Assembly: GCA_040285855.1 (NCBI GenBank)
Contig: JAUFOQ010000003.1
Coordinates: 1,798,001-1,862,000 of the forward strand
Direction: 5' to 3'
DNA: 64,000 bases
Source of the DNA: Eukaryota sp. GEM-RC1
Lineage: Eukaryota
Positions 605-63,100 of the stretch are shown piece by piece. The notes under the pieces are model-generated. The model searched no databases, had not been told where the DNA came from, and saw only the letters and a list, made by a program, of their open reading frames with translations. Every line of letters begins with the position of its first letter. Within the stretch, counting starts at the first letter, position 1. Both the position numbers and the translations under genes were made by a program.

Positions 605-685
605 TATTCAGATTAAGTTGTTGATAAAACAGTCTGGGAAAGAAAAAGAAAACAGTAATTTGTTCCACCTACTACATTTAGAACA

Positions 686-15601: not shown

Positions 15602-15692
15602 CAGTGATTGGGAGATCAAGTTTTCTATTTTTGTTTGGTCGAATATCAAACACAGGTGTTTTAGTTCAAAACTTTCTGAGGGAGGTTGTTGC

Positions 15693-30501: not shown

Positions 30502-31557
30502 CTAATTGAAAACATCTAACGCCTGTTGCACTGCGGGTGGAATAGTCTGGTCATATGACGCCAGCATAGTATCAATTTGTTTTTGATCAATTGAAGTCTC
30601 CCTTATAAGAAAATGATCAACATGTCGTAGATACACAGATTCCTCGTCTTTCAGAAACGCGTTCAGCTCATAGCAATAATCCCATAGCAATTCCTCTCGG
30701 CCTTCTGGTTTGGCAGCCTGTAACGCGTCTAGAATGGTTTTAAGAGTCTGAATACGCTTTTGATACAGTTTCAATGGACGAAACTCGTGAGTGATACGTC
30801 CAAGATTTACAGGAAATGAATGTATACTGTACGCGAACTTCAAATAGAAGGAATGAACATAGTTACTGAAAAACTGGAGCAATTGGCTGAACTCAAAAGG
30901 TGTTTCATCATAAAATGACTCTGCAATATTCAGGACTTTATAGATCACCGCCGTACACTGCGTCATCCTGGACGAAACATAAGAGGGAACAATGGGAACT
31001 GTAGGGGGAACCTTGGTGTAGGTCAGATCAATGTTAGGGTCAAAGTCAGGGCGATTGGCAAAGTCAGTGTAGGCTTCTTCCACAAAAGCCTCTAAAGCAC
31101 GAACCTTTGGTGTTACATAAGACAGCATGCGTTTTTGCAACATTTCAAGATCAAAGTCTCCAATAAACACCATGAGAGAGGGAAAAACCATGGATTCTTC
31201 AGCTGATCCATGTAGACCACTTAATGCTACGTATTCATGAACCAATTCAAGGAAAACAGTATGGTTCTTCCGGTACTCTTCACACATAGAAGCGTGAAGC
31301 GACTTCAGTTTGGCGTGTTGATCCTTAATAGTCAGTACTCTGTCAACAAGAGGCGACAGTTCGACTACATAATCTGAGAGAGCCTCTTCTTCACAATCAC
31401 AGTGGAAAGAGAGGCAATAGTGACCGATAAAGTCAAGATAAGGTTGAAGGTCGGCACCATTCTGTGGATATGATCGTATTAGATGCTGAAAAACATCCAT
31501 GGCTTTGTATATGACCAAATGCTGTCGCTTAAGTTCATCTGCGAGATCCAGATTCAT
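30502..31557 (-). CDS. Hemerythrin-like (HHE) domain protein, copy 2
   Basis: Colinear close paralog of 14546..15601 with the same H/E motifs; upstream homology extends ~430 bp. Confidence 0.78.
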   Translation of the reverse strand: MNLDLADELKRQHLVIYKAMDVFQHLIRSYPQNGADLQPYLDFIGHYCLSFHCDCEEEALSDYVVELSPLVDRVLTIKDQHAKLKSLHASMCEEYRKNHTVFLELVHEYVALSGLHGSAEESMVFPSLMVFIGDFDLEMLQKRMLSYVTPKVRALEAFVEEAYTDFANRPDFDPNIDLTYTKVPPTVPIVPSYVSSRMTQCTAVIYKVLNIAESFYDETPFEFSQLLQFFSNYVHSFYLKFAYSIHSFPVNLGRITHEFRPLKLYQKRIQTLKTILDALQAAKPEGREELLWDYCYELNAFLKDEESVYLRHVDHFLIRETSIDQKQIDTMLASYDQTIPPAVQQALDVFN

Positions 31558-32015
31558 CAGTGATTGGGAGATCCAGTTTTCTATTTTTGTTTAGTCGAAG
31601 ATCAAAACTCGGTGTTTTAGTTCAAAATTGTCTTCTGAGCCACAATTGTTCTCTTCTCCCTTCTGAAATGAACTTGGAAGTCATAGACCCCATATTCGCT
31701 CCATCGTTCTAATGATAAATTACTCTGAATCGCAGTAGGCACACGTCTATAATTCTACAGTGTTTCTCTCAATTACTTCGTTAGTGGCCCTCATCTATAT
31801 GTATTTTTTATTACTTGTGTCATGTTAGAGGAATTTCAGTTCACTAAACAATTTTGAAGCGGTAGCCCTTTAACATCAACCCTGTTTCTCGTTTTCTCGG
31901 ATCTGAAGTGCGGATGAATGTGCTAGGGAGCGTCACGTTCAGTAATACATGTTAAGTAAATCAGAATTTTCTCTCAACATTCTAGGTGGATTGACGACAG
32001 TGACACAAAATGAAA

Positions 32016-33962: not shown

Positions 33963-34719
33963 CTTTACATCAGCAACGACAAAAAATATATATACTTATT
34001 GTATTGTTTATTTTTTGATCGAACAATAAATATATTGTCCAATCAAATATTGTATTGTATTGTAGGTATATTGTGAGAAAAAACAATAAATAACAATACA
34101 ATATTTCTGCTTTATTGAAAGCTGTTATCAATCTGAATAATTGCTTTTTACACGTGCAACTTCACTTTCTGCTTCCCAAGTCCTAACATAGGACCCTGTA
34201 TGCTGATTTCTGGTAGTAGGAAATGCCAAAATTGACTTTGGGACTTTAAAATCGATTAGGACGATCAGTGAGAGTGATCTGTGTTCTACTAAAAAAGTTG
34301 TCAATGTCTTAACTGGACGAGAGTGTGAATAATAGATCATTTGTGCTGTCTGGTTCTAAAGAGTCTGAGCTCTGTTAATTTCCTTTAATTGTTGCTCAGA
34401 AGACAGACCATCACAATTTTGGGTAATATTAATTTATACAAGTTCGTTCATCAGAGGATTCCTAATGAACAACTGGGGGTTACACATCTTCCAATAGTTT
34501 GGTTCTAATGTGAAGAACAATGACGTTGTCAGATATGTCATTCTTGTTATAGTTGCACAAAATGACAAATATTGTATTGTGTTATTGTACAATATACTGT
34601 TTATTGTGGACTCGAACAATTAATATATTGTTGCAAAAACACAATACAATAAAATACTAATATCACAATATATTGTATTGTAACAATACAATATATTGTT
34701 TGTCGTTGCTGATATAAAG
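33963..34719. mobile_element. TIR non-autonomous element (superfamily unclear)
   Basis: Inverted ends CTTTA(C/T)ATCAGCAACGACAAA; ATTGTATTG subterminal repeats; no clear TSD. Confidence 0.65.
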
Positions 34720-34963
34720 GACTCCACATCACTGTGGAAAACTTACCTAAATCCATGAAGCAATCTAATTGACATCATCCATGGTGTCGTCGTAATGTTT
34801 TTGTGGCAGCTCCAATTGGCTTTTTAAGAGCTCGTCACCGTTAAAAGATCCCCTAACGGACAATCAATACACATAGCACGTCCAGAAACGGTTGAAGTGC
34901 AAGTAAGTGCCAATCCTATCGACACTGTGATAATCTTGTGAAATTTCTTCCAGTTTTACTAGT

Positions 34964-37900
34964 ATGGGCTTCCTCTTTAAAAAGTAGTAAAAAGGAATCC
35001 ACTACTACCTCAGATACTCAACAACTCCAACCTCCACCAACTGATGAATTACAGGAAATTTTTCTCGAGCTCTTAGATGACTTAATGATTCAGGGAACAC
35101 AGCGCACTCAAATGCTTTCTATGCCTGACAAAACTAAATGGACTATCATACTTTCAAACCGTTCATTGGAAGACTTACAAAAACGCTCCACCAAAACTGA
35201 TGAACAACCAGAATTCCTTTCATCTGCACTTCAAGCTGAACCCAATGTATCTTATGCTCGTACTCTTCGTGTTAAACTCTCTACTGGTCAGCAGAAGTGG
35301 CTTCAATCCTTTCTGGCATTCAATAATGGCCTTAAAGCAATAACAAAATCATTAACTTTTGCAAACGACGTACTTCTGTCGTCCCTTCATGGTGATGGTT
35401 CTGTTCTTCCCTGACCAGATTGAACTTCAACTTGAATTACTGCTCTGCGTACGAGCTCTTGTTAACGCTGAGTACTCTAGCAAGGTTGTTATCTGTGATC
35501 AAGCTCTGGTTAATCAAGTCTTGGCTTCTTTATATTGCCCTAAATACACTCAATCACTTTCACGAATGCCTCTGGTTGGAAAGAAGATCATTACGGCCTT
35601 GGAAATTGTTACTGCTGTTTGTTTATTGTCTTCTAGTGGCTTTTTATCAGTCTTGGAGGCTACTGGTGAGTCACAATCTGGTGATCTTTCTGGTTCAACA
35701 TCTTGGCACTGGCGAGACCTCTGTAATTTAATTAGTTTTTCGTCTCTTGATGTCAAGCTTATGGCGCTTATTTTTATTAATTCACTGTTATCTAAAGTTG
35801 AAGCTCTACATCATCGAATTTCTCTCAGGAAATCAATTCTATCTGCTGGACTAGGATTGTTGTTGGATGATCTGGGGAAGCTCAACAGTGATCTCAATTA
35901 TCACGTGTCGTTGTTTTTAGTAGCTCAAAATGATGACGAGGATGATTTAGCTGCAGAAAAGGAAGTTTTGAAGTTTCATGAGTTTTCGAGAACATCCTCA
36001 ATCGCCACCCAAGTTTCGTTACTTGATCAAGGAGAACTTCCCAAACTAGACTGTTCGGTCCAAGTTTCGTCCAAGCTATTTTTATCAAATAAGTTCACTC
36101 TAACAGAGATAACTGGTGATGTCATTAGTACTTCAGAGATTCCTGATGAAAGGCCATCAGAATCAACTAGAGACGATGTAAAACCACATGAATCACCTGT
36201 TGGTAAAACTCCTAAACGTCCACCTCCACCAGTTCCTTCTGATCAAACTAAGTCCCTTACTGAGACCTCTTCTTCAACTAGTTCCTCTTCTGTAGATCTC
36301 TCACCAAAACGACCATGTCCTCCCCCACCACCTCTCCCTAATGCATCGGCTATTGTTCCTCCTCCTCTTCCGGGAACGTCTGGTCCTCCCCCGCCACCAC
36401 TTCCTGGCATGTCCGGACCTCCTCCGCCACCACTTCCTGTTGCTAAACCTGGTCCACCTCCACCTCCTCTTCCTGGAATGTCTGGACCTCCTCCGCCACC
36501 ACTTCCTGTTGCTAAACCTGGTCCACCTCCACCTCCTCTTCCTGGAATGTCTGGATCTCCACCTCCACCACCCATGCCAGGTGCTTCTACAGTTCCTCCT
36601 CCACCCCTCCCTGGAATGTCTGGACCTCCACCTCCTCTCCCTGGTCTAAACCTAGGCGTCCCTCAACTAGGAGTCCAAAAGAAGAAAGAACCTAAACCTC
36701 CCATACCAGTTAAATCCTTCCATTGGGACAAGATCAACCCACGTTCTCTTAAGGAATCCTCCATCTTCTCTACCTTAGATTCTAACAATATTCCCCTCCA
36801 ACGGAATGAACTATACCAAATGTTCTGTCTAAAGAAACCAGCCACGTCTTCCTCGTCCACGTCTTCTCCTAAGCCTTCACCATCCCAATCATCTCCTATA
36901 GTGTCGTTGTTAGGTGGACAACGGTCAAAAACCATTGCTATTGTATTGATTACTCTGCGTACAGATTTTGATCTGATTGCATCTGCTCTAATGTCGTTTG
37001 ATTCGTCTGTTATTACTAGCGATCGTGCTAAAATGCTACTTACAGCTCTGCCCACACAAGAAGAAATTGAATTAATACGAAATTTTGACGGAAACACCGA
37101 GAAACTAGACACTGCAGAGAAATTCATATTCAAAGTCATGGATATACCCAGACTCTCAGAACGACTCGAGTGTTTATCTTTCCAAAAGAAACTTCCAGAG
37201 TATCTTCAGAACATCGAAGACCTTTGTACCAGACTTAAAGATTTCTGCTATTCTCTCTTGTCCTCCTCCAAGTTCTCCACCTTACTAGAGACAGTTCTAG
37301 CCATTGGAAATGCCCTGAATGCTGGTAGTTTCAAAGGGGGAGCAACTGCCTTTAAACTGGAGTCTTTATTGAAATTACCTGATACGAAAGGTTTGAATAA
37401 TACGACGCTGCTTCATTATCTAGTAGAGCTGCTTACCACTCACAAGGAGTTTCTGGCTAAATCAATTCATTTATGGTATGAAGATTTAAAATATTTAGAT
37501 AGTTTTGAGAGAGAATCGTTGGGAGTAGCTAAATCTGACATGGGAGATGCTAGGAAGATGATGGTGGTTGTTGAAGAAGCTTTGTCGGGAGAGTTTTCCA
37601 ATGATGGAAATGATATGTTTGAACTGAAGTTGAAGCAATTTCATGATGAAGTTTCAGCTTATTTTGGAAGAGTTTCAGAGTTGGTTCAAGAGACGGAGAA
37701 ACTTGCTACGGAGGCTGTTGAATATGTTGGAGAGAATCCAAAGAAATTTGAACTTGAAAATCTAACTAAAATTTTGATTGAGTTTAAGTCGTTGTTTAAA
37801 AAGGCATTAGAAGAGGTCAAAAAGCAACGGGAGAGTCAGAAATCACGAGAAAGTTCCAGAGAAAGCTCTCCAGCCAAAGCTCGTAGTTCTATTAGTGCAG

Positions 37901-38039
37901 AGTCTAATATTAAACCAAGTCCTCTTGCTTCTAGACTGGGACCAAAGGAGTTAATCCCGCAGCCAATGGACTGCTGGATTCTCTGCTAGGAGAATTGAAG
38001 TCTGGAAAGGCTTTTGCCAAGCGTAAGCCTATGAGCTAA
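34964..38039 (+). CDS. Diaphanous-related formin (GBD/FH3, FH1 polyproline, FH2, DAD); several 1-nt shifts
   Basis: FLELLDDL..MPDKTKW (GBD); PPPPPLPG repeats; VKSFHWDKI, LAIGNALNAG..GFKL-like (TAFKLESLLKL), TLLHYL; terminal GLLDSLLGELKSGKAF DAD in a shifted frame ending TAA 38039. Confidence 0.92.
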
Positions 38040-39447: not shown

Positions 39448-39848
39448 TTATGTCCAGGACGATCCATCTTCGGTGTAGATTTCTCTTCCAAAGGGCCATA
39501 CGCTTAGCTTAGCTAATCTCCAGTTGGCTATCCCGAACGGAATTGTGATGATAAGTAAGAAGAAGAAGATTGCAAAAGAAGATGAATTAGTGGAATCCAA
39601 AAGAAGAAAATTAAATTAATTACATTGAACACTGTAGTTAAAACGTCCTGATCTGAGTCAGCAATTGGCTTAATTCTTCGCCCAAAGGGTAGTAAGGCAA
39701 CAAAGGCAAATCGAACCATTTGGTAAGCAAAAGGAAGACCAATAATAGTTATGGCTAAGAAGAAAGCAGCAATAAGATATTCAATGAAGAACGCCCACCC
39801 AATTAGGATAACCCAGACAATATTGAGGAATAGCTGTTTACCATTCAT
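39448..39848 (-). CDS. yccF: YccF-domain inner-membrane-type protein (two repeats); 1-nt shift near 39575
   Basis: LNIVWVILIGW..ITIIGLPFAYQ..ALLPFGR and second repeat IITIPFGIANWRLAKLSVWPFGR. Confidence 0.85.
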
Positions 39849-39979
39849 TTTGGAAATTATTGAGAATGACTAGAAGAATTGATAGTTCGCAGATCACAGA
39901 AGTAGAACTCATATACCAGTAAGCTCTACTTCCATTCCACTTCATCTCCCTTCTCTCACTACATGAAAGAATGTTCTGT

Positions 39980-40278
39980 TGAACGTTTCCAGAACTCCCG
40001 AAGCTCTTTTCAACCCTGCCAAACCTGATTTATGATTGCTCTTAGCTATTATTTACCTGAACCTGCCATGATTGGTCTTGAATCTCCCGCTATTCATGAA
40101 CAAACCTACAAGTCTATCATGAATCGACAAACGTATGGAGAAGGAAATGATCAACCAAGCTCCTCCTGCTGTAAAGATTAAGATTGTTGCTCCCCCAGAA
40201 AGAAAGTACTCTGTATAGATTGGAGGTTCCATTTTGTCATCTTTGACCACCTATGAATCTATGTGGATTACTCGTGAA
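39980..40278 (+). pseudogene. ACT: Actin C-terminal pseudogene fragment
   Basis: [65 protein letters not shown]; internal deletion, W-to-stop, truncated. Confidence 0.88.
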
Positions 40279-41100
40279 CATGTTATACCCTCTATGTGTA
40301 TTGATTGTCCGTTAGGGGATTTTCCCTGTGTTCGGTAGTTCGACTCCGTTTTAAATGATAGTTCAGATAAATATGAGTTTGTGCTGGAATAAATCACCTA
40401 TATCTATAGTAAATCGCAACTCAAAGTGACATTCAAGTTACAATATTTACTACTTCGACAACTGCTCAATATCGATGAATTGATTTAGTTTCAGATATTG
40501 GGGTCTTGTAGTGTGTTCCTTGTTATAAAGATACTAGTATGTCATTGTGCTCATTTTCAACATCTTTCATAAATCATGTATATCTTATAGTTTTCAACAA
40601 ATGTTGTATCACCAAATGTTGTTGTTACAAATGTTGTCAGTTTCAGTATGTCAAGATGTCACTGTAGACAACATCTATAAATAGTGTGAATTTATATTTG
40701 AGTCTAATTGCTTGGAGAGATGTCTATGGATACTTGTGTCCTGAGATCTCTCTCCTTCTTCTTTTCATCAACCAAACACGATCACGTGTTTAAGGATATG
40801 CCAAGAGAACATATTTTCTCGAGGCGTTCCTTTGTTCTACCTTTGTTACATGGTTTGTTTACTCACTTTTCGTCACTCAAACACGATCACGTGTTTAAGG
40901 ATGTGCCAAGAGAACATATTTTCTCGAGGCGTTCCTTTTTCTCTCATGGATTCTCGAATTATTCTATGTTGTTTCTTCTTTTGTTGTTGTTAGGGAAAGT
41001 CTTGAGTTCGTCTCAGTCGTTGTTTTGTTTTTACGATCATAAAGTCAGCACTTGTATGGTTTTTCTACAATCAAGTCTCCAGTCATCACAATTTCTCCGT

Positions 41101-41142
41101 GATTTGACTATGGACGGAGACATAGAGTCAAACCCTGGCCCA
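41101..41142 (+). other. 2A (StopGo) ribosome-skipping peptide
   Basis: DLTMDGDIESNPG/P fits the D(V/I)ExNPGP consensus, preceded by FLR. Confidence 0.9.
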
Positions 41143-41600
41143 GAAATTGCTTTTGGTGGTATTAGTCCTCTGGGTGATGAAACATGGCTAGAATCTTCAC
41201 ATTTAAATTTTGGGCATCACTTGATAGCACAAAAGTACCCTTTGCTGCAGAGATTATAGGAGATTTCGACCCTATGGAGTTTGGCAGCGCTATACGAAAT
41301 CAAGATAATTTGGCTGATGTTTCTGTAACCATTAAATCTAACAATGTTGGTAAAGTGTTGGTAGTAGTGCCTATTAATGATGCTATAACTGCATTATTTC
41401 CTGGAAGTCATTGGGGACTTGCTATTTACGATCTTGCTTTGAGTCATTTGTATTTCGCAGATTCCCTTAATGGAAAAATGTTCTTAAATTCAACCAAAGA
41501 ACATGTAGCACGTGCTAGCAATCTTTTTATCCTCACAATCTAAGTGTACCACAACAAAACAATGACTATGATTGTGGAATTTTTGTTTTATATTGTGATT
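41143..41600 (+). pseudogene. Ulp1/SENP8-like C48 protease domain 1 (spread over several reading frames)
   Basis: ETWLESSHL, VVVPIND..GSHWGLAIYD..YFADSL and, in a shifted frame, VPQQNNDYDCGIFVLY. Confidence 0.75.
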
Positions 41601-42890
41601 GAAACCTTGTATAAAAGCTTCAATAACCAGCTTTTGAATCAAGTTGATTTGCAGCATAAACTTCCAATATTGGCGGAGAAAGTGCAATCACTGCAAGAAT
41701 TGATCAATAACAACGACCCAGAAACTGAGCCAAAACAATTAGAAGACGCAAAGAATGACTATCAAAATGCCGTCAATCAGTTGATAGTTATTGATTTGAA
41801 GTATAAACTTGCAATATTGGCGGAGAAAGTGCAATCACTGCAAGAATTAATCAGCAACAACGACCCAAAAACTCAGGTAAAGCATTTAGAAAAGGCACAG
41901 AATGACTATCAAAATGCCATCAATCAGTATTACACAGAATACAATCGGTTGTTAGGTTTAAGTCATTGTACCGCATTCACCACATGTCAATTCGATTTAT
42001 CTTATCAAACTTTTGATCCCACAGTATACAGGACTATGTTAAATAATGAAATACGGAAATACCTAGGGTTACCTACTGACGTTCATTCAACCCAATCTCA
42101 ACAACAAATGAATATATCTGTTGGTACTTCTGCGATATCCGAACCTTCAACACTTATGTCATCTCCTGATGAAATTCCAGATTCAAATCCCAATGCTCTG
42201 ACACAAAGTGAATTACAACAGGTTTCAGAGGCAATCCAATCTTTGTCACCTGATGGTTGGATTGTGGACGATTGTGTTAATTGGTACTCTCAACATTTGA
42301 TGGAGATATATGGAGTTGATTTAAACGTCTTTGTAACTCCTGGATCTGTTCAATCATTTTTAGTTCATGAAAATCAATCTCTTCACGAGTTTTTCATCAA
42401 CAAGATTCTTCAGGAAAATTCTAGATATCTGTTTCTTCCTATAAATGACGCATTGATTAACGAAAGTTCTGGTATACATTGGGGTTTGATTGTAATCGAT
42501 ACACATGATGAACTTTTCATCTTTCTCGATCCTCTTTATGATGTTGAAGATCACAGACAAGATGTTGGTAAAAATTTATATGAAATTAATTCTTTTTTGA
42601 ATCAAGTTATTTCGAAAGTAGATGAAACTCTTCATCAACTCAATTATCGACTCATTATTGTTCCAGTGATAGAGAAGCAAACACCAAATGATTGTGGAAT
42701 TTATGTTCTTGAGTATATGAGAGGACTTTTAGAACTTCTCACTTCACATGAATTATCAGATCAACCTCTTATTCAAGCTGCTGGTATATTGTTGCAAAAC
42801 TCTATCAATGCTCAAGAGAGTAGGCAAGTAATAAAATTGTATCTTCAATCTTTACAACCAACTATAGTTCCACCTACACTTCCTCAGTAA
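41544..42890 (+). CDS. Helical repeat region plus Ulp1/SENP8-like C48 protease domain 2
   Basis: DGWIVDDCVNWY, LFLPIND..SGIHWGLIV..FLDPL, KQTPNDCGIYVLEY (H-D-C triad); duplicated ~49-aa LAEKVQSLQELI repeat. Confidence 0.82.
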   Translation: MYHNKTMTMIVEFLFYIVIETLYKSFNNQLLNQVDLQHKLPILAEKVQSLQELINNNDPETEPKQLEDAKNDYQNAVNQLIVIDLKYKLAILAEKVQSLQELISNNDPKTQVKHLEKAQNDYQNAINQYYTEYNRLLGLSHCTAFTTCQFDLSYQTFDPTVYRTMLNNEIRKYLGLPTDVHSTQSQQQMNISVGTSAISEPSTLMSSPDEIPDSNPNALTQSELQQVSEAIQSLSPDGWIVDDCVNWYSQHLMEIYGVDLNVFVTPGSVQSFLVHENQSLHEFFINKILQENSRYLFLPINDALINESSGIHWGLIVIDTHDELFIFLDPLYDVEDHRQDVGKNLYEINSFLNQVISKVDETLHQLNYRLIIVPVIEKQTPNDCGIYVLEYMRGLLELLTSHELSDQPLIQAAGILLQNSINAQESRQVIKLYLQSLQPTIVPPTLPQ

Positions 42891-43261
42891 CAACATTGTA
42901 GATCGGACACTGGAAAGAAAAAATCTCCCAAAACTAATCAACCTGCTGGGAAAGAAATAAATCTTCTGAAACTTCTGAAAGTACTACACGTCTGTCATCT
43001 CGTCGTAAAACTCTAGAAGTAACTAATAAAAGTTCATCAAGTTATTCTTCAACATCTGACACATCCGTAAAAAACTCTAAAGCACGACGGCTAGAACGGA
43101 AACCAAAAAGTGTCATTCGTCAGTAATTCATCGTCCACAAGAACAAGTTTCTAAACGTCAACAGAGACTGTATAATCAATCTAGTGGTTGTACAAAATTC
43201 CCTAAAACTGACGAAGAATGTCAAAGCTCGCAAGTAGTTGAAGGTTCAACTGGTTCTTTGA

Positions 43262-46200
43262 ATGAATTTCCTGAAATTCCAGTTGTTAAAGGAAAAAAGG
43301 AAAAAGAATCAAGAATTCCATTTATTGACATTGCAACTGATACTGTTGTTGATGACTCCCCTTCCTACAGTTTTTATAATTGATATTGAAACAAGAAATA
43401 TCAATGAGAGAATTCCTTCAAGAGTGAACAAAGAATTGAATGAACATCGTAAAACAGAAAAAGAGTCTTTGAAACAGAGAAGATCTTTAATGAATGATTT
43501 TGAGAAAGAAGCTCACGACTTTGATTTTCTCTCAGAACAACAAATCATCATGATCTCTGTCATTATTGCAAAACTACAACCCGATGGTAAGTTACAATTT
43601 GACAACTCAATCGTTCTTTACACTGACTACAACTATAAAATCAAATTCAGTGAATCAGAAACACCAGCTTTTAAATTAGATCTTTTGGACTTCCCAAATG
43701 AAAACGAATAATTGGTTACATACGCTAATATTGTTAATCAATATAAACCAAATGCTTTTATTGGACATAACATTTTCAATTTTGATTTGCCCATAATTGA
43801 CAATAGAATGTGGGCTCTTGACCTTCCTCTTTTAACAAATCCAAATCCAATTCAGTTGCCTTTACATAGTAGATGGCTGGATATCATAAAAGATCACAAT
43901 GGTTTTACAGTTTTGGATACCTTTTTGTTTGCAAAGAAGTATATTGGTCTCAAGTATGGTTGTAGTCTAGCCAATTTATCTTGGAATTTACTTTCTGAAC
44001 CCAAATTGAAATTGGATAAAGACTTGGACCACTTACTCCCAGTTGATTGTTTAAGAAGTGATAAAAGAATGAAAACGCTAATCAACTACTGTCTTCATGA
44101 TTCAATTTTGGCGTTTAAATTGTTTATTTTATTTCAAAAAGACAAAATTGTTTTTCAATCATGGGCTTCTATTAAAACGTCAGTTGTTAGTGTGGTAAAA
44201 CATCAAGAAGTTCAAGATGCAATGCTTTTAGGATCTCAGTTCTACAATGCGTTAAGACAACAGACTACAATGTGTGTTAAAGAATATCTGTTGGCTCGCT
44301 ATCGTCTTGGACAAGATTTGTCTAAGTTTGATTACAAGTTATTTTATCATACAATGCTTTCAATTAGAAATCTTTCATCTAAAGTTCATAACTTTAAAAT
44401 TCCAAATAATTGTCCTATACGAACGATTGATACAGATCTTCGTGATTTTGTTGCTGGAGAAGGTATTTATACTGCCAATTCAAACTATCCTGGATATAAG
44501 CACTGTGTTACTGATACATTTGGCACATGTCATTTACCAGAACTTGATCTTGATCATATCAGCAGAGCTTTTGAATACACTACTCAGTATGAAATGTGGC
44601 CTGCGTTTGAACTAAATATTCGTCGCAATTATGAGTTGTACATTAAAAGATTTATCAATACAGTAATGGGTAAGAAAGAGTTTGAAAAGGGAATGAAAGA
44701 GAGTCGTAATTTAGTTTTAGGTCCAGAACTTGCAAGACTAACAGGACGTGAAGCTCAAAAATTCACTAGTTACTTCAGATGTCGATTAAAGATGTTGAAA
44801 GACCAGATTTTGTATCGACCTAGAGATGAAGCCTTACAGTATATTAATTCTTTTAACTCTGCCACTCACCCTGAAAATGTTAAGTTTATTGATGAAGTTT
44901 CTAAAGTTTTTAATGACGATTTCAGTATGTTAATATTTGAACAGATCAATTCCCTAATGGCTGATAAAATTCCACAATTACTTCAAAGATTTAACATCAT
45001 ATTTCCTACTTCAATCACTGCTAACGACAATGAAACTGTAGACGTTCATAATTTACTTTACACAGTTCAGGAGTATCCACTTCATTTTCTAAGAAATTCT
45101 CTTCAAATCTCAGATTACTTGGAATCCAAGGGTGCTAAGTTGTATAATGTAATTCCTCTAAGTTTAGAGAATACTCCTTGTTTTTTCCCAATAGATACCA
45201 GAACTCTTTGGGGACTGGCTAAGCACTGTTTTGGATATAAGAATAATGACAAGAAGATTGGTCCTTTACATTCAAAAGTGACTAATTACATGTCTGCTGG
45301 TCAGATCATCAACATGACCCATTCTCAACAACAAGATTACTGGAAAAGATGGTTTAACTATGATGACAGAAGTTTTCACAAAGCCAATTTTGAATTCAAC
45401 AACTATGCTGTAACTGATGGAATTTCGATTTGTTTTCAATTTGTGAGAAAGGATCTGAAAGGAATGAAATGTAAACCTGATTCAAGTAAAGCTTCAGTAA
45501 AAGTACAATATTTCAATGAATGTGATAGGTCTGATTTTATTTCTAAACAAATGGTTTATGTGGACATTGGAAAGAGAGATATGCTACAACTTGCATCTAA
45601 ATCAAATAGGGAAACTCAAAATCCTCTAAAAAAATACAACTTTTTACGATTGACATATGCTGAGTGGTCTAGAGTTTCAAGAAAGCACAAAAGAATCCAC
45701 CAGTACCTTGTTAGAAGGAGATCAGGTACTACTACCGTGAGAGCAGGTGATGATATTCCAATAACTGTGACAATGAAAATTGAGAAATGGAACACTTGGT
45801 TAAGTGAAGAACAGGATTCTAAAACTGTTAATTACACTAAATTTAGAAAGTTTATTCTGGCTAAATGTATTCACTACAATGCAACTAAAGACTTCTATGC
45901 TTTGCATATATGGAGGATTCACAAAATCCAAAATCATGTCCATAAGCAAAAGACAGAGTCTAAATTGGTTAACAGCATTGTAAAAACTTTTGGTAGCCGT
46001 GACAAAATCGTACTATGTATTGGTGATTTAGGCCAGAAGCCAATCACCAACTTAAAGCACAGTCCACCATCCAGAACTAAGACTTGGACTTCATTCTTTC
46101 AGAGAAATGGTTTTCTAACAGTGTTGAATGATGAGAGAAACACTTCGTCCAAGTGTCCAGAATGTCATGAAGATGTTTTTGAAACTTCTATTGAGGTTGT

Positions 46201-46444
46201 CAACCCAAAGCCAAAATCAAGAGAGAAGAGAGAATGGATTCACCCCCATGGCTTACTAGAGTGTAAGAGTGAACATTGTCTGGGAGAAGTCAAGAAGCGA
46301 TTGAAGGGGGATAAGATAGGGCATACAGTGCCCAGTCAAATGTATTGGAATCGCAACAAGATGGCTTGCTTGAACATGATGAACATGTTCGAGCATTGGA
46401 TGAATGGTAGTGATGAGAGAGTAGAGTATCTGAGTAGAAATTAG
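43262..46444 (+). CDS. PolB-type DEDDy 3'-5' exonuclease fused to Fanzor1-like (TnpB-derived) RuvC nuclease; one in-frame TAA at 43709
   Basis: Exo motifs IIDIET, IGHNIFNFDLP, YCLHD; Fanzor motifs LYNVIPL..PIDT, VTDGIS, VYVDIGKRD, LCIGDLG, NDERNTSSKCPEC..CKSEHC, WNRNKMACLNM. Confidence 0.88.
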
Positions 46445-46520
46445 TTTTATTTTTGTTAGCTGGCCGGTGAAACCCGGCCATATTTGGTTAAGTCCATTGT
46501 TATTTGTCATACCCTCATGA
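46445..46520 (+). ncRNA. Candidate Fanzor omegaRNA scaffold / right end
   Basis: GC-rich hairpin TGGCCGG-TGAAAC-CCGGCCA (46461-46480) 16 nt after the Fanzor stop in otherwise AT-rich DNA; position matches known Fanzor/TnpB loci; extent unknown. Confidence 0.5.
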
Positions 46521-47580
46521 ACATTGTTCGAAAACACACATGTGATTCAAAAAAAGTGACGTGTGGACACGGTGTCACTGAAATGGTGTGAATTGACCAC
46601 TTCAATCTTTTCCAGAAATTTAGAATTATTAGAACGTTTACTTTTCTTTTATCTAACGCTTTGTTATCTCTTGGTAGACCGATTGAGAATACGGTAGGTG
46701 AAAATTTCCAAATAGGCAATCTGGACTTTGAGGATATTGATCATTAGATGTAGGTACAATGTAGTATCGTTGTCAATAAACACCAGCTTCATAGAAAACA
46801 TGTACTACTACTAAGTACTGTAGTAGTCTGTATGTTGTTTATAAAATTTTGTTGATCAAAAATATGTCTTTTCAAGATTTACAGTTCTGCTTTCATTTCA
46901 AACTGACAATGTCTCTAGATTCAATCCAGATATTGAGAAATAAGATAACGAATTAAATTACCGCCATCTGCAAGAAATTATATTCATGAGTGTTGATCAA
47001 TAAAGATCGTTTTATCAGTAATGAAGTTTTACAGGTCGTAGTGGAAGAGTAAATTTGTTTTTCCACTCAAACCAATGTATAGATATGATGATTTCATTTT
47101 GTCCAAGTTGTTTGGTTAAAAATACTTTTCAGAATTGAGTAGTTCGTTTCAAAGTTTGTTTTAATGGATTGTATTTATAATTAATAATTATGTTGTGTGT
47201 TGGTCTCAGCATATAAATCTGCTTTTTAACAGCCAGAAGTTCGTGAAAAGTAACGACAAAGGTAGAGTTCATGTTTTCTGTTTAAGTCAATCATTGTCCA
47301 AGAGTATGGTGTCAATCTTTAACAAAATATCTCTAGATACTGAAAAATTCTTGAATCACTAAATGGTGTACACGTGTCAAGGATGACGTCATCAAGACAT
47401 AGTGTGGAGTAGTTTAAAACTAAAAGGTATATTGTTCTTACAATCTGATGAAGAAATAATTTGATAAACTATGAAAAAACTGAACTTTATGGAGCGCTTG
47501 AACAACTGCTCTTGAACAGAAAGATATTAAATAAATCAAAAATCTCAGCAAAGTCGACTAATATTAAAAATCAACTCCAC

Positions 47581-55409: not shown

Positions 55410-57668
55410 TTAAGCAATATATTCATAGATGGGATTATTCCGAGCTACTATACCGAATTCATTCTCGTTCAATTCCTTAGTACAATAATCTTCCTCTTGA
55501 AGTGACTCCAATGTCTGCTTAAAGAAATCCCGATCAATAATGAACTTATTAATTAAAATATCTTGAACTCGCTGCTTCAGTTCAATAAAGGAAACACGGC
55601 GATCTGTTTTCAAAACTCTTACAATGGCTGCCCTTAGCGAAACAGTTCTGGATGCTGCCAGAACTGATTTTTCCTAATTGTTGAAAGTACATCAGACGTT
55701 GGAAGTAAGGAAAGTGTGGGCATCGAAGGTTTAAACTTTGGATTAAGTAAAAACACATCTTGAGGAGCAAATTGTGCATCATCTTTGGTTGTTGGTTTCT
55801 TGCTGATTTTACCAATCACCATAGTCTCGTACTTGCAATTTAGACACCTACCTGTTGTGTTAGAGGCAGTTCTACAGACACTACAAAGTTTAGACTTTTT
55901 GTTACACTTTCTTTGTAACAATAGTGTTAAAACGTCATCTAATGTTTTTTCATCCACTCCAGACTCTTGTAATAAATAGTGGTAAGAAACTACAAACTTA
56001 GGGTGTGACCTTAATAACAATAAGACCTGGGCTTGTGGTAGCAAGCACCGGACAGTTACAGGAGAACCATACAAGGAAGTCTGTAAGTGAACAATAGAGG
56101 TTGCAGGAATTAAAGTAAGATTTCGAGCAGGAAACTTGCTATCGTAGAATGTACGAAGGTTCTCCCACGTGGATTCGAACTGTGGTAAGAGGCGGCAAGA
56201 ACCAAGATCTAAAGTCCAATCTTTTGTTGAACCAATAATGACTGACAATTGTTGAACTCCTGGAGTTGGAAAGTTGAGTTGAGAACTAAGTTCTTTAGAT
56301 ACATTCTTAACGTCACTAATCATTTGAGTTGCAGTTCCAAATTCATCTTCAAAAGTGGTTTTAAATTTGTTCAACACTATCTCTTCCCTTGCGAACTTCT
56401 CTTCTGTATAATCTTGGGATAAAAGTCTATTCTGTAACAAAAGACTATGTGTTGTATAGAAAGCGTCAGGTGAGGGAAGAAAGGGAATTAGGCAAAAAAC
56501 TGACTCAAATAAAACAACAAATTCATCGTCAGAGATTTGACTTTCAGTAGCACATAGCAAATGGTGGACATAGTGAATCAAAACTATTGCTATATCCTCA
56601 TAATGATCAGTTTTAAACACTTCACGGAAAGTCTTTTCTGCAAGCTCAGAAAAAACCAAGTTACGAAGAAAACACTTTGGAACAACTTCATTAAAGTACA
56701 ACTGACAAAAGGAAATTAGAGGTTTAACAAAATCTTCGACAACTTTCCTATTATTGAGCTGTAAACGTGGCACTTCTGATTGAGTCAAAAATGATACTAT
56801 CGCTCCCTTAACTAATGATTCGAACTGATTGTGAAACTCTGCAAAGGGTGGATTAAACCATAGAATTGTTCCAAAAACTTTAAATTTTGTTCAGAATCAA
56901 TGTTAATAATCCAGTTTTGAATAATTTGAGGATCATCAAAGAAACTTGGAACATAAGGTATTAACATCGTATTATGTACAATTTCCTTTGTTTCCTTTAA
57001 AAATCTATTCTGTAACTTGAGTTCACACAGATTTTGAACAAGAGACATTGAATCATGAACCTCTTGAACATACTCATGCAATGGGCGTTGAATATCTTGG
57101 GCAGCCTTTGCGGTATAGTAGGATGTAAGAAACTCTAGAAAAGGAAGTTCAAAGATCTCACGGAAGAGAGATTGGTTCTTAATTGAAAGGAGGAGGTTCA
57201 CAGTGGTATCCAGGGTATTGTCTTCGTCAACAAAGAGATTAAGGATGTTTGAGAGTCTATTTTTGAGAGATTCTTTGATCTTTTGGTTGAGATCGGAGTG
57301 GCCGTTATACCCGAGTAAGCCGTCGAGGAAGGAAGACTTACAGTCGTCTGCAGTTATGTTGACCAGGGAGAAGAGACTGAATATGTGATGAGCGCTGTTA
57401 AGGACTACTTGCCATCTTTCAGCAAGAGTTGGTAGAAGCGTGATTCTTCCTTTATGCTGGAGAAGATACTCACGAGAGGATTGTCCGAAAAGCAACATTC
57501 TTTCTCCCAGAAAGTCCTGAAGTCTATTCCCTCCAGTGGAAGTTAAGAGAGAATGGACTTTGTCGTGAATAAGACGATAAGAAACACCAGACTTCTTCTT
57601 TTCTAGGATTCCTATTACAGCAGGATCAAAGGAGTAGTTCCAGTCATAAAAAGGGAAGATCTGCGCAT
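55410..57668 (-). CDS. Divergent cullin, copy 1 (frameshifted)
   Basis: FELPFLEFLTSYY, DAFY..LLQNRLL, QMISD, FYDSKFPARNLT, AAIVRVLKTDR..LESL..EDY neddylation domain. Confidence 0.82.
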
Positions 57669-58544
57669 TCGATTGAAAAATTTGAAATTCTAATTTTGGT
57701 TTACACTGAAACCGAAACCAATTCTAAATATCGATATGCTTATTTAGATAGCACTAATATTCATCACCTTATTGAACTCCTTCAAAGTGAAATTAGTGTA
57801 CACCACATTATTAATGTGTGTTCATCCACAAACAATTTGTTTCGATGTGTGTTTATTCTATATACTAGTAACGTGAAACTTTATATAGTGTAGGTCCTTA
57901 TAGTTTTTCTATGAACAGTTTTGACTAACATTAATTAACGAGGGTCAAACTATTACTTTGAAGTAAGTGTATACGAGTTTTGTCAGACTAATCTTAATTA
58001 CACCAAATGTTGTAGAACTAGGTAAGTGACCGTCAAAAGAGTTCGTCGGATAGGATTTGATCCGTGCTCTTTTACTTTTAGATTTATAATGAAATTTCTT
58101 TGATAGAATTAACAGTAATCCCAAGAAGTGTCAATCAAAGAGTTCGTTTTCGCTCCTTCACATCGTTAATAGTGTACTGTTACAAGATTCTGTTAATAGG
58201 TACTTTTAAAATCATCGACAAATCCAAATAGAGTTTCAAAATTTGTAAGATGATCAACATCAATGCATTAACTTTGTTTGGTTTTAACCACTTGTACTGA
58301 TAGACCATTAACAGTGCGTCTCGATTTCTTTGTTGTTGCAGAATGTTGCAGATACGACGTCATAGGTCTTCTCTAATAGGAGTAGTTTTCAGGAAATAAT
58401 GGAATGGTATTAACCTATTGTTACTGTTCTCTATTATGTGGTATTACAGATGTATGATATGATAATTAAACCAATAGTTGAAATGTATTATTTGAAAAAT
58501 GATTATGAAAATGAAGAAGCTTTGTGATCCAATTAACTATTTAA

Positions 58545-60728
58545 TTAGGCAATATACTCATATATGGGATTCTTTTGATCCAAAATACCGAATTCATTCT
58601 CGTTTAATTCCTTAGTACAATACTCCCGTTGTTGAAGTGACTCCAGCGTATTTTTAAAGAATTCACGTTCAATCGCGAACTTATTAATCAAAATATCTTG
58701 AACTCGTTGCTTTAAATCTGTAAAGGAAACACGGCGATCTGTTTTCAATACTCTGACAATTGATGCTTCCAAAACATGTCTACGTGATTCCATCAGAGCT
58801 GGATTTTCTTTAGTTGAGGAATGATCAGCAGAACCTTGAATTAAAGAGATTAGCTGCGCTGATGTCCTGAATTTTGGATTCAACACAAAGAGATCTTTTG
58901 GAGTAAATTCAACTTTACCAGGAGTTTTTTTGTGTGCTTTTCTAAAGATTAAAGATTGTCCATTAGACTTAAATGGCAACATACTCAACAAAACATTGTT
59001 TAAACTAATGTCATCAACACGTAATTCTTGCTGGAGAGAACTGTATGATTGAGCAAATTTAGGATCAGGTCTTAATAACAGCAACACTTGGGCTTGAGGA
59101 AGGTAGCAACGAATAGTCACTGGGGGACCATATATGGAAGTTTGTAAGTGAACAACTGATTTAGTAGGGATCAGGGTCAATCGACGTGATTGAAACTTAT
59201 TTGTGTAAAACGTTCGAAGGTTCTCCCACGTGGATTCGAACTGTGGTAAGAGGCGGCAAGAACCAGAATCCAATCGCCAGTCTTTTGATGAACCGACAAT
59301 GACTGACAATTGTTGAACTCCTGGAGTTGGAAAGTTGAGTTGAGAATTAAGTTCAGTAGAAACATTCTTAACGTCACCAATCATTTGAGTTGCCGCGCTG
59401 AATTCATCTTCAAAAGTGGTTTTAAATTTGTTCAACACTATTTCTTCCCTTGCGAACTTCTCTTCTGTATATTCTTGGGTCAAAAGTCTATTCTGCAGCA
59501 GCCCGACATGTGTTGTATAGAAAGCGTCAGGTGAGGGGAGAAAGGGAATTAGACAAAAACTGACTCAAATAATACAACAAATTCATCGTCAGATATTTGG
59601 CTTTCAGTAGCACATAGCAAATGGTGGACATAGTGAATCAAAACTATTGCTATAGACTCGAACTGTTTAGTTTTAAACACTTCACGGAAAGTCTTTTCTG
59701 CAACCTCAGCAAAGACCAAGTTTCGAAGAAAACACTTTGGAACAACAACACTAAAGTATAACTGACAAAAGGTAATTAGAGGTTTAACAAAATCTTCGAC
59801 AACTTTCCTATTATTTAGTTGCTTATTTGGAACTTCTGATTGAGTCAGGAATGACACTAAAGCTGTCTCAACTAATGATTCGAACTGGGTGTGGAACTCT
59901 GCAAAAGGGTGGATTAAACCATAGAATTGTTCCAAAAAGATTAAATTCTGTTCATAATCAATGTTCATAATCCAGTTTTGAATAATTTGAGGATCATCAA
60001 AAAACTTGGAACATAAGGTATTAACATTGTGTTTTCAACAATTTCTTTTGTTTCCTTCAAAAATCTATTCTGTAACTTGCGTGCGGACAGATTTTGAACT
60101 TCTTCCATTGAATCATGTACTGATTTGACATACCCATGTAAAGGACGTTGAATATCTTGGGCAGCCTTTGCGGTATAGTAAGACGTAAGAAACTCTAGAA
60201 AAGGAAATTCAAAGATCTCACGGAAGAGAGATTGGTTCTTAATTGAAAGGAGGAGGTTCACAGTGGTATCCAGAGTATTGTCTTCGTCAACAAAGAGATT
60301 AAGGATGTTTGAGAGTCTATTTTTGAGAGATTCTTTGATCTTTTGGTTGAGATCGGAGTGGCCGTTATACCCAAGTAAGCCGTCGAGGAAGGAAGACTTA
60401 CAGTCGTTTGAAGTTATTCGAACAAGAGAGAAGAGACTGAATATGTGATGAGCGCTGTTGAGAAACATTTGCCATCTTTCAGCAAGAGTTGGTAGAAGCG
60501 TGGCTTCTCCTTTATGTTGCAGAAGATACTCACGAGAGGATTGTCCGAAAAGCAACATTCTATGGCCTAAGAAATCCCGTAGTCTATTCCCTCCAGTAGC
60601 AGTTAAGAGAGAATGGACTTTGTCATGAATCTCACGATAAGAAACACCAGACTTCTTGTTCTCAAGGATTCCTATTACAGCAGGATCAAAGGAGTAGTTC
60701 CAGTCATAAAAAGGGAGGAACTTCGCAT
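58545..60728 (-). CDS. Divergent cullin, copy 2 (frameshifted)
   Basis: Tandem paralog of copy 1; RHVLEASIVRVLKTDRR..LESLQQREY C-terminal winged-helix. Confidence 0.84.
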
Positions 60729-61190
60729 AGCTGGCAAATTTGAAGATTTGAAATCCTTATACTTTTGAGATGATTCTGTTTGCTAATTTCGAGTGAGACC
60801 TTCACCGTGTGTCAAACTGTAGGTCTCTTTTCTAGGTAATGGCGGAAATCATGTATTTGAAATGAAATCTACAACTTTTAGATTTGGGGAAAGAATTCCA
60901 TTTTTTAAAATGATGTTACTTTGAGTACAATCTGTCGCAAACATATATACTCAAAAGGTGGGATATCAGTTGATAGAAGACGGTAAAATATGGGGTTATA
61001 TCGCAAAATCGAGAAAATAAACGATGCACGAAGTATATTTTAGGTGAAAATATACTGTAGAAAATATACTGTAGATGAATTAAAGTATGAATATAAATGT
61101 CTCTTCAAAACTGAGAATTTCGTCAAATGATCCAATGCCAGTAAATCTGTGATTCACTAGAATAAATTCAAAAAATACTAAAAACTAAAC

Positions 61191-63003: not shown

Positions 63004-63100
63004 GAAAGTTTTGAGGAGAAGTCTGAATAGACAAGTGGAGAACAAAATTCTTGAGTTCATTCACAACCTCTTGTTCACTGTAAAATAAGTTCATGACAGC

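What the first reader, a model, noticed from the sequence alone, without database searches (positions are those of the whole stretch)
40279..46516. Fanzor element with an unusual polyprotein: 2A - two deSUMO/deNEDD proteases - proofreading exonuclease - RNA-guided nuclease
Seen: five same-strand ORF blocks from 40708 to 46444 that join through a few frameshifts and in-frame TAAs into ~1,800 codons. In order they carry a hydrophobic leader, a 2A motif, two C48 protease domains, a Ser/Lys-rich linker, a DEDDy exonuclease and a Fanzor1-type core with zinc finger, followed by a GC hairpin. No transposase, RT, Rep/helicase or capsid motif is visible. Known: Fanzors are eukaryotic TnpB-derived omegaRNA-guided nucleases carried by diverse transposons. 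Inference: a new Fanzor architecture coupling guided DNA targeting, end processing and removal of ubiquitin-like marks; this copy may be decaying. I know of no description of this combination but cannot run a search to confirm novelty.
Basis: partly seen in the sequence, partly recalled or inferred. Interest (0 to 1): 0.95.

Follow-up and report, generated by a model that had tools for sequence, protein, structure and literature searches.

The report
Fanzor fused to proofreading exonuclease
A broken copy of a multi-copy mobile element in a single-celled eukaryote encodes a Fanzor1 protein (a predicted RNA-guided DNA cutter) joined directly to a DNA-polymerase-type proofreading exonuclease, a pairing kept in relatives from three protist isolates and not found in my literature searches; the extra enzyme likely trims the cut DNA end so that the element can be copied into the break.

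Summary
Observation confirmed, with corrections. A 6.24-kb element (40279-46519), flanked by CATG and inserted in an actin relic, reads leader - 2A - C48 protease x2 - Ser/Lys linker - family-B proofreading exonuclease - Fanzor1 (about 1,900 codons, 6 frameshifts, 2 stops). Sequence and fold identify the C-terminus as Fanzor1. Relatives named from three protist isolates, down to about 30% identity, keep the exonuclease fused to the Fanzor with its catalytic residues invariant. None of 128 other Fanzor-like hits has it. The exonuclease-Fanzor fusion is therefore the conserved core. RuvC-III is Asn family-wide, a form shown to be active in GtFz1. No transposase; the ends are short direct repeats, Crypton-like. 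Best model (inferred, untested): guided cut, trimming of the displaced 3' tail back to the insertion junction, then homing. The frameshifts may be assembly errors, because host genes in the window are broken the same way. I found no report of this fusion. New variant of Fanzor1.

The parts
40150..40278 (+). Target: 3' part of an actin pseudogene (in-frame stop, internal deletion); its last codons continue right of the element
   Evidence: Pfam Actin E 1.7e-10, profile positions 351-395 of 410; translations
40279..40282 (+). CATG at left junction (target-site duplication or recombination core; predicted part of the TAM)
40281..40292 (+). Left copy of a 12-nt direct repeat (TGTTATACCCTC) shared with the right end
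   Evidence: only two matches in the window, with the pattern taken from them; 9 of 17,849 CATG pairs, this one included, reach 11/12
40283..40719 (+). Left end and 5' non-coding region; no recombinase or transposase remnant seen in six frames; 32 nt of it recur at 34845-34876 (-)
40720..41118 (+). Leader with a 35-codon tandem duplication and a hydrophobic Leu-rich stretch (about 40966-40998)
   Evidence: end of leader plus 2A matches P0180 and P0054 at E 4e-5 and 8e-5
41119..41142 (+). 2A / StopGo motif D-I-E-S-N-P-G|P (skipping activity predicted, not tested)
   Evidence: related motif in P0008, P0022/25, P0038/188/189, P0054, P0180
41143..41610 (+). C48 (Ulp1/SENP8-like) protease 1; His about 41409, Cys 41573; three frameshifts
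41644..41928 (+). 49-codon tandem duplication, likely helical spacer
   Evidence: 88% identity
42230..42760 (+). C48 protease 2; His about 42477, Cys 42693
   Evidence: Pfam PF02902 E 7e-9; SENP8 best PDB hit E 1e-4; four sister proteins at 90-95%
42888..42890 (+). In-frame TAA specific to this copy (Gln in P0195, P0198)
42891..43363 (+). Ser/Lys-rich linker with three frameshifts; the one near 42950 is shared with both sister models that cover it
43364..44149 (+). Family-B DNA polymerase-type 3'-5' exonuclease (DEDDy): D/E at 43382/43388, D 43784, Y 44087, D 44099; TAA at 43709 (Leu in P0001, P0008)
   Evidence: Pfam PF03104; model pLDDT 90.8; top 17 VIA rows all family-B polymerases, Z 14.4-19.8
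44150..46444 (+). Fanzor1: WED TDG motif 45413, RuvC-I D 45563, RuvC-II E 46133, zinc finger from 46154, RuvC-III N 46355
46445..46519 (+). Predicted omegaRNA scaffold: 75 nt from the stop codon through the right CATG; hairpin 46461-46481; right repeat copy 46505-46516
   Evidence: length matches the 75-nt SpuFz1 scaffold (PMC10432273); not shown to be expressed
46516..46519 (+). CATG at right junction
46520..46534 (+). Predicted 14-15-nt guide (right flank, actin relic)
   Evidence: inference from the Fanzor1 rule

Best explanation
This is a broken copy of a multi-copy Fanzor1 element whose conserved core is a family-B proofreading exonuclease fused directly to the Fanzor, and the exonuclease likely trims the 3' DNA tail left by the predicted RNA-guided cut so that host recombination would copy the element back into the break. 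Steps: (1) Shown: the architecture, its conservation in relatives, intact exonuclease residues, and a D-E-N RuvC triad. (2) Inferred from SpuFz1/GtFz1: an omegaRNA made of the 75-nt right end plus 14-15 nt of flank guides a cut at the element-free allele, about 14-17 nt past a TAM that includes CATG. The TAM must reach further 5' than CATG, or the element would cut its own right junction. (3) Inferred: that cut leaves the non-target strand with a 3' tail that does not match the element's left end. The fused exonuclease removes it back to the junction, and the end then primes copying from an occupied allele (homing). (4) Inferred: moves to new sites need a recombinase in trans, most likely Crypton-type, given short direct repeats and no inverted repeats. 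(5) Inferred: the 2A sheds the leader and protease cargo from the nuclease. The C48 proteases are optional cargo that would remove NEDD8/SUMO-type marks from host silencing or repair proteins.
For: Fusion: P0001 and P0008 read through the window's stop; P0022, P0028 and P0178 hold the whole exonuclease plus Fanzor in one model. In the model the exonuclease (residues 12-275) abuts the first Fanzor strand (277/278, equal to SpuFz1 residue 18), so it is attached at the WED/TAM side. Selection: ExoI D/E, ExoII D and ExoIII Y/D are invariant in 10 of 10 aligned rows from 7 lineages at 31-40% identity, similar to the 32-54% of the Fanzor part. Specificity: 6 of 150 search hits carry the exonuclease, all in the family; 0 of the 128 others. 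DNA-type enzyme: the top 17 structural matches are family-B polymerases, above the best RNA exonuclease (Z 12.6). Active nuclease plausible: N at RuvC-III is active in GtFz1, and D606N raises SpuFz1 activity (PMC11423790 passages). Cut geometry: non-target strand cut after base 16-17 in SpuFz1 and 14-17 in GtFz1 (PMC10432273 section 8). Precedent: T4 43Exo contributes to intron homing (PMC12153337 passage); Pol delta proofreading chews back invading 3' ends (PMC10868807 passage). Cryptons lack TIRs, have 4-6-bp terminal direct repeats and in oomycetes carry C48 peptidases (PMC3212892 passages).
Against: No biochemical, expression or empty-site data. No sister DNA could be fetched, so ends, TSD and omegaRNA rest on one copy. 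The predicted scaffold folds no better than shuffles (z -0.8 to -1.8) and has no Rfam match. No recombinase was found, and none could be searched genome-wide. Relatives are automated gene models that can skip breaks or fuse neighbours: P0180 lacks ExoI and P0177 carries a DEAH helicase. The actin relic is shorter than expected at the junction (profile match stops at 395 of 410), so CATG may not be a clean duplication. Engineered fusion of a 5' exonuclease (T5) lowered SpuFz1 editing (PMC13434818 passage); that is a different polarity, but it shows an added nuclease need not help. This copy has two stops that sisters lack.
Confidence: 0.5

Rival explanations
1. Cut-and-scar: the exonuclease widens the break so that repair deletes the target, destroying element-free alleles or rival DNA instead of promoting clean homing.
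For: SpuFz1 leaves 5' overhangs that a 3'-5' exonuclease would enlarge. The actin relic around the insertion carries deletions, one apparently at the junction.
Against: The deletions also lie far from the junction and cannot be dated. Target destruction gives the element less direct gain than copying. Fusion at the TAM-side N-terminus fits trimming of the retained end.
Confidence: 0.17
2. Transposase-free mobility: guided cutting plus trimming is itself enough to copy the element to new, partly matching sites by host repair, with no recombinase in trans.
For: No transposase family in this copy or in the 28 relatives scanned with Pfam, counting repeats. At least 18 clustered protein records, on at least 5 contigs among the 15 listed. 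Variable 5' modules resemble the unclassified MCi-2 family (PMC3627910 section 12).
Against: Non-autonomous Fanzor elements mobilised in trans are common (PMC10530073 section 7). Copying to an unrelated site needs homology that the flanks do not give. Precise CATG ends and an end repeat suggest a recombinase substrate.
Confidence: 0.12
3. The exonuclease matures the omegaRNA 3' end, trimming the read-through transcript to a 14-15-nt guide.
For: Fanzor1 guides end 14-15 nt past the scaffold, and some 3' trimming must occur.
Against: The fold is clearly family-B DNA proofreading type rather than RNase T/ERI/ISG20 type. Fanzors without the domain make mature guides in yeast.
Confidence: 0.09
4. 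Passenger relic: a polymerase fragment and proteases were captured once (from a virus or host gene) and ride along with no coupling to the nuclease; the protease part may even be a separate ORF.
For: Proteases are dispensable in some lineages. The protease frame stops at the same place in 3 of 3 copies that cover the junction.
Against: Exonuclease catalytic residues are invariant across lineages about 30% identical, and the domain is not seen separated from the Fanzor in any model that spans the junction. 5 of 15 sister models also share a break at a purine run where this copy is intact, so shared breaks can be systematic errors.
Confidence: 0.12

Closest known systems
Fanzor1 nucleases SpuFz1 (Spizellomyces punctatus, 8GKH), PpFz1 (Parasitella parasitica, 9CF0), GtFz1 (Guillardia theta, 9CER)
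   Same: Whole-domain fold (VIA Z 25.6 to PpFz, 24.6 to SpuFz, 19.8 to GtFz, rmsd 3.8-4.2 A over 516-595 residues), TDG motif, E just before the zinc finger, about 75 nt between stop and end, Asn at RuvC-III as in GtFz1.
   Different: Those are stand-alone proteins of about 600-800 aa; Spu-1 has 30-nt inverted repeats. Here an exonuclease is fused at the N-terminus, with a 2A and proteases upstream, and the ends are direct repeats. RuvC-I reads D-I-G here (D-P-G in most family members).
Crypton elements (CryptonS/CryptonF of oomycetes) and the MCi-2/MCi-5 Fanzor families of Mucor circinelloides
   Same: [quoted passage not shown] Fanzor1 in TIR-less elements with variable 5' parts (PMC3627910).
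   Different: No tyrosine recombinase here. In Cryptons the C48 is described as an additional protein, not a 2A-linked part of a Fanzor reading frame. MCi-2 has 11-12-bp TSDs.
T4 td intron homing (I-TevI with 43Exo and DexA)
   Same: An endonuclease cut followed by 3'-5' exonuclease action, including a family-B proofreading domain, during homing (PMC12153337 passage).
   Different: Phage, protein-guided, and the exonuclease is a separate phage protein; here it is fused to an RNA-guided nuclease.
2A-bearing non-LTR retrotransposons (L1Tc, Ingi, APE-type elements of animals)
   Same: 2A motif near the start of a transposon reading frame (PMC3708506 and PMC4981915, search listing and start of abstract only).
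   Different: Those are retroelements. No RT or APE here, and I found no paper placing a 2A in a Fanzor element.
Cas2-DEDDh (PDB 8FYC)
   Same: A DEDD exonuclease fused to a CRISPR-related protein; listed at Z 12.1. Its role in trimming 3' overhangs is recalled, not read here.
   Different: DnaQ-type, bacterial, acts in spacer acquisition, not fused to the guided nuclease.

Membership tests
Fanzor1 | RuvC-I Asp, [TS]S-xx-C4 zinc finger, RuvC-III R-D (Bao and Jurka motif) | tested here: met
   D 45563, T-S-S-K-C with CPEC and a second Cys pair; RuvC-III is R-N, not R-D, the accepted active variant of GtFz1
Fanzor1 | Alternative RuvC-II Glu close before the zinc finger | tested here: met
   E 46133, seven residues before the first Cys
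Fanzor1 | TDG motif in WED and Fanzor1-type REC/WED fold | tested here: met
   TDG at 45413; top 7 Foldseek and VIA rows are Fanzor1 structures
Fanzor1 | DPG signature in RuvC-I | tested here: inconclusive
   D-I-G in this subfamily, D-L-G in P0022, D-P-G in 7 of the 9 family rows shown
Fanzor1 | omegaRNA from the right end with flank-derived guide | not testable with these tools
   75-nt stop-to-end distance and a hairpin fit; no sister DNA or RNA reads available
Fanzor1 | TAM- and guide-dependent dsDNA cleavage | not testable with these tools
   needs biochemistry
Family-B polymerase proofreading exonuclease (DEDDy) | ExoI DxE, ExoII N-x3-F-D, ExoIII Y-x3-D and PolB-type fold | tested here: met
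Family-B DNA polymerase (whole enzyme; Polinton or virus) | Palm/fingers polymerase domain after the exonuclease | tested here: not met
   the Fanzor begins 2-5 residues after the exonuclease; no polymerase or capsid region remains
C48 / Ulp1 peptidase | His-Asp-Cys triad, oxyanion Gln, W motif | tested here: met
   both domains; Gln is five rather than six residues before Cys in protease 2 and in P0025
SENP8/NEDP1 deneddylase versus SUMO protease | Substrate specificity | tested here: inconclusive
   profile scores SENP8 E 1.9e-10 and SENP2 E 4.6e-10
Class A 2A/StopGo peptide | D-[VI]-E-x-N-P-G-P motif | tested here: met
   two relatives' lineages have His for Glu
Class A 2A/StopGo peptide | Ribosome skipping | not testable with these tools
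   needs a reporter assay
Crypton | No TIRs, 4-6-bp direct repeats at termini | tested here: met
   no terminal inverted repeat; CATG at both ends; one copy only
Crypton | Tyrosine recombinase encoded by the element | tested here: not met
   no such family in Pfam, PHROG or NCBIfam scans or in six frames of the 5' region; not filed as a Crypton, at most a non-autonomous look-alike
DDE/TIR transposon | Terminal inverted repeats and DDE transposase | tested here: not met
Nuclease-dead TnpB derivatives (TldR-like; name recalled) | Loss of RuvC catalytic residues | tested here: inconclusive
   D and E kept; N at the third site does not inactivate Fanzor1 in published tests, but activity of this family is untested

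The most novel reading that the evidence does not exclude
A transposase-free class of eukaryotic mobile element. An RNA-guided Fanzor cuts, its fused proofreading exonuclease tailors the end, 2A-released proteases strip SUMO/NEDD8 marks from host repair or silencing factors, and host recombination alone copies the element to new sites.
Probability: 0.12. Interest if true: 0.92.

Novelty: new variant of a known kind. Interest (0 to 1): 0.72.

Why it matters
Fanzors are thought to help their elements by homing, but what happens to the DNA end after the cut is untested in eukaryotes. A natural, conserved fusion of a catalytically intact proofreading exonuclease to Fanzor1 points to 3' tail removal as a limiting step, and one point mutant can test that. 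It is also a naturally evolved nuclease-exonuclease pair, of a kind genome engineers build by hand, and could shift editing towards templated repair or defined deletions. The 2A and the C48 cargo show a DNA element using virus-like polyprotein expression. Limits: the family was found only in three related protist isolates, and no activity is shown.

Tried and rejected
No whole genome is held for this window, so sister loci, their ends and a mobilising recombinase could not be searched. No sequencing run was listed; this says nothing about expression or about the frameshifts. No related loci in metagenome contigs (0 of 249 pattern matches) or viral contigs (0 of 401). Search for longer proteins matching protease 2: none among 599 candidates, weak evidence. 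A homolog search with the whole protease ORF could not be made, so the distribution of protease 1 and the leader is poorly known. ESM Atlas: no usable hit for P0180; the exonuclease part matched PF03104 clusters at 0.93. Exonuclease versus phage genomes: no match. Rfam: none. Earlier scan notes: nothing relevant. Rejected readings: (a) alternative genetic code, because sisters have different residues (Gln, Leu) at the two TAAs and host ORFs of 700-960 codons are open in the standard code; (b) nuclease-dead Fanzor, because of published D-E-N activity; (c) programmed -1 frameshift near 42950, because I saw no canonical slippery heptamer in frame by eye and downstream folding is unremarkable (z -0.53), though it is not excluded; (d) Polinton or virus, because there is no polymerase core or capsid; (e) helicase partner (P0177), seen once and likely a chimeric gene model. 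Two rough probabilities printed (frameshift rate, run context) rest on by-eye inputs and are not used.
Full report
OBSERVATION. The sequence 40279-46519 has CATG at both ends. The left flank is the 3' part of an actin pseudogene (Pfam Actin E 1.7e-10, profile 351-395 of 410), and actin-like codons continue on the right. Three-frame translation and a read-through with X at each break give about 1,908 positions in seven segments, with six frameshifts and two in-frame TAA stops. The order is leader, 2A motif, C48 protease 1, duplicated spacer, C48 protease 2, Ser/Lys linker, exonuclease, Fanzor. The last 3 kb has no frameshift. There are no terminal inverted repeats. A 12-nt direct repeat overlaps both CATGs; 9 of 17,849 CATG pairs in the window, this one included, match as well. 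Flanking genes are eukaryotic (eIF2A, beta-adaptin, formin, cullin, ESF1, and an RRP6-like gene by its domain set). I do not assign the window to a source.

THE NUCLEASE IS FANZOR1. The only PDB sequence hits are SpuFz1 and PpFz1. An AlphaFold2 model of exonuclease plus Fanzor (mean pLDDT 85.4, pTM 0.76) has the seven Fanzor1 entries as its top Foldseek hits (E 7e-27 to 5e-18). VIA aligns residues 277-1038 to PpFz (Z 25.6, rmsd 3.9, 595 aligned) and 278-1040 to SpuFz residues 18-633. The TDG motif, RuvC-I Asp, the Glu before the zinc finger and the zinc finger are present. RuvC-III is Asn. Among the 150 search hits, all 10 family rows that reach the motif have N (12 other family rows are fragments). 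Among the 128 others, 87 have D, 4 have N and 37 could not be scored. One cluster member, P0018, has D. Xu et al. (PMC11423790, passages) report that GtFz1 cuts with N there and that SpuFz1 D606N is more active, so this is no sign of inactivity.

IT IS A FAMILY. The ORF falls in a cluster of 18 protein records, 17 named by NCBI from Eukaryota sp. GEM-RC1 (about 89-97% identical), with 11 more from TZLM1-RC (about 50%). A search of 1.84 billion representatives returned 755 hits at E <= 0.001. I looked up 10 of the best: all are named from GEM-RC1 (1), TZLM1-RC (2) or TZLM3-RCL (7). A genome paper describes GEMRC and TZLM3-RCL as Skoliomonas metamonads with MinION-based assemblies (bioRxiv 10.1101/2023.05.03.539051, passages and section 16); that TZLM1-RC is S. 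litria is recalled. I assigned 22 of the 150 hits to the family by rank and similarity; sources of the rows not looked up are unknown. In a quick, unrooted tree of 73 rows, the 13 family rows included form one side of a branch with SH-aLRT 100 (fragments and lower-ranked rows left out).

WHAT IS CONSERVED. P0001 and P0008 read through the stop at 43709, and P0022, P0028 and P0178 hold the full exonuclease and Fanzor in one model. The exonuclease's five catalytic residues are invariant in 10 of 10 aligned rows from 7 lineages. Its identity between lineages (31-40%) is like that of the Fanzor part (32-54%). A profile finds it in 6 of the 150 hits, all family, and in 0 of the 128 others. Folded alone (pLDDT 90.8), its top 17 matches among 48,161 chains are family-B DNA polymerases (Z 14.4-19.8), above RNA exonucleases (12.6 or less). 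Its donor (cellular or viral) is unresolved. The upstream part varies: leader-2A-C48-exonuclease-Fanzor (P0180, P0054), C48-2A-linker-exonuclease-Fanzor (P0025 with P0022), 2A directly before the exonuclease (P0189, P0038, P0008), and no 2A in models that may be N-terminally incomplete (P0028, P0185). Two proteases are seen only in this copy. Protease 2 has four sister records; protease 1 is closest to the single proteases of P0180 and P0054. These relatives are automated models and can skip breaks or fuse neighbours.

DECAY OR ASSEMBLY ERROR. The two stops are specific to this copy. I placed all six frameshifts at short base runs, but only the last is pinned by a sister sequence. Host genes in the window show the same kind of short-range out-of-frame junction (nine junctions shown; tiny introns not formally excluded). 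Five of 15 sister models break at one purine run near 46316 where this copy is intact. Against a clean polyprotein, both sister models that span the junction after protease 2 stop where this copy stops. That could be a systematic error, an inherited lesion or a real boundary; it lies where P0025 has its 2A. No reads were available to decide.

MECHANISM. Exactly 75 nt separate the stop codon from the end of the right CATG, the scaffold length reported for SpuFz1 (PMC10432273 section 7). The 3' TSD is part of the scaffold in known Fanzor1s (PMC13565253 and PMC10711439). So the guide would be the flank from 46520, and the TAM would include CATG plus at least one base that differs between the two junctions. 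Fanzor1 cuts the non-target strand 14-17 nt past the TAM. For homing, that strand's 3' end must prime synthesis into the element, but it carries a tail that does not match the element. A proofreading-type exonuclease tethered at the WED/TAM side is suited to remove it, as 43Exo helps T4 intron homing and Pol delta chews back invading ends (passages). This step is inference, and the scaffold fold itself is not statistically unusual. With no transposase and short direct repeats, mobilisation in trans by a Crypton-type recombinase is the nearest precedent, and oomycete Cryptons also carry C48 peptidases (PMC3212892 passages). The element itself lacks the recombinase, so I do not file it as a Crypton. 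Protease substrate is unresolved. I put 0.9 on the fusion being real and selected, and 0.5 on the trimming-for-homing model.

NOVELTY. Ten full-text searches, judged from listings, showed no natural Fanzor-exonuclease, Fanzor-C48 or Fanzor-2A description. Term searches found no 'exonuclease' in the main text of PMC10530073, PMC10711439, PMC13565253 or PMC3627910. They also found none of six terms in the held supplements of PMC10530073, PMC10711439 and PMC10432273, where one scanned file was not searched. Two 2A surveys have no 'Fanzor' or 'transposase' (PMC12846837, PMC12338488), and the genome paper has no 'Fanzor'. Also read as passages: PMC13434818, PMC6338049 and bioRxiv 10.64898/2026.06.03.729735. 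Sections read: PMC3627910 6 and 12, PMC10530073 7, PMC13565253 21, PMC10711439 28. Repbase, subscription journals and bioRxiv supplements were not searched. Each part is known, C48 cargo in transposons is known, and the D-E-N triad is known; the fused, conserved exonuclease is the new feature. Verdict: real, a new variant of Fanzor1, interest 0.72.

Noticed in passing
window 34845-34876 (-): 32 nt, 31 identical to the element's left-end sequence 40292-40323, isolated upstream of the formin gene: a likely relic of another copy's left end.
   Followed up: partly
window 33963-34719: 757-bp AT-rich stretch bounded by 29-nt inverted repeats (93%), MITE-like.
   Followed up: no
window 659-2258, 6286-9011, 34896-37989, 55634-60756, 61191-63060: eIF2A, beta-adaptin, formin, two cullin-like copies and ESF1 are each split by short-range frame changes, suggesting an indel-prone assembly.
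   Followed up: partly
window 55634-57723 and 58545-60756 (-): Tandem cullin-family paralogs, 88% identical at DNA level, about 10 kb from an element carrying SENP8-like proteases; probably coincidence.
   Followed up: no
window 14546-15724 and 30502-31590 (-): Two paralogous genes; the first has a weak hemerythrin-domain hit.
   Followed up: no
window 15755-16552 (+): 265-codon ORF with no Pfam hit that by eye resembles the tail of a non-LTR retroelement protein (recalled resemblance).
   Followed up: no
window 39528-39869 (-): Small YccF-domain membrane gene, a family described from bacteria, next to the actin relic.
   Followed up: no
protein P0177 (2027 aa): DEAH-box helicase joined to a complete exonuclease-Fanzor; seen once, either a chimeric gene model or a captured helicase.
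   Followed up: partly
protein P0008: Sister 92-95% identical in the exonuclease-Fanzor part but with a different 2A (55% to this copy's) directly upstream: a subfamily with a swapped 5' module.
   Followed up: partly
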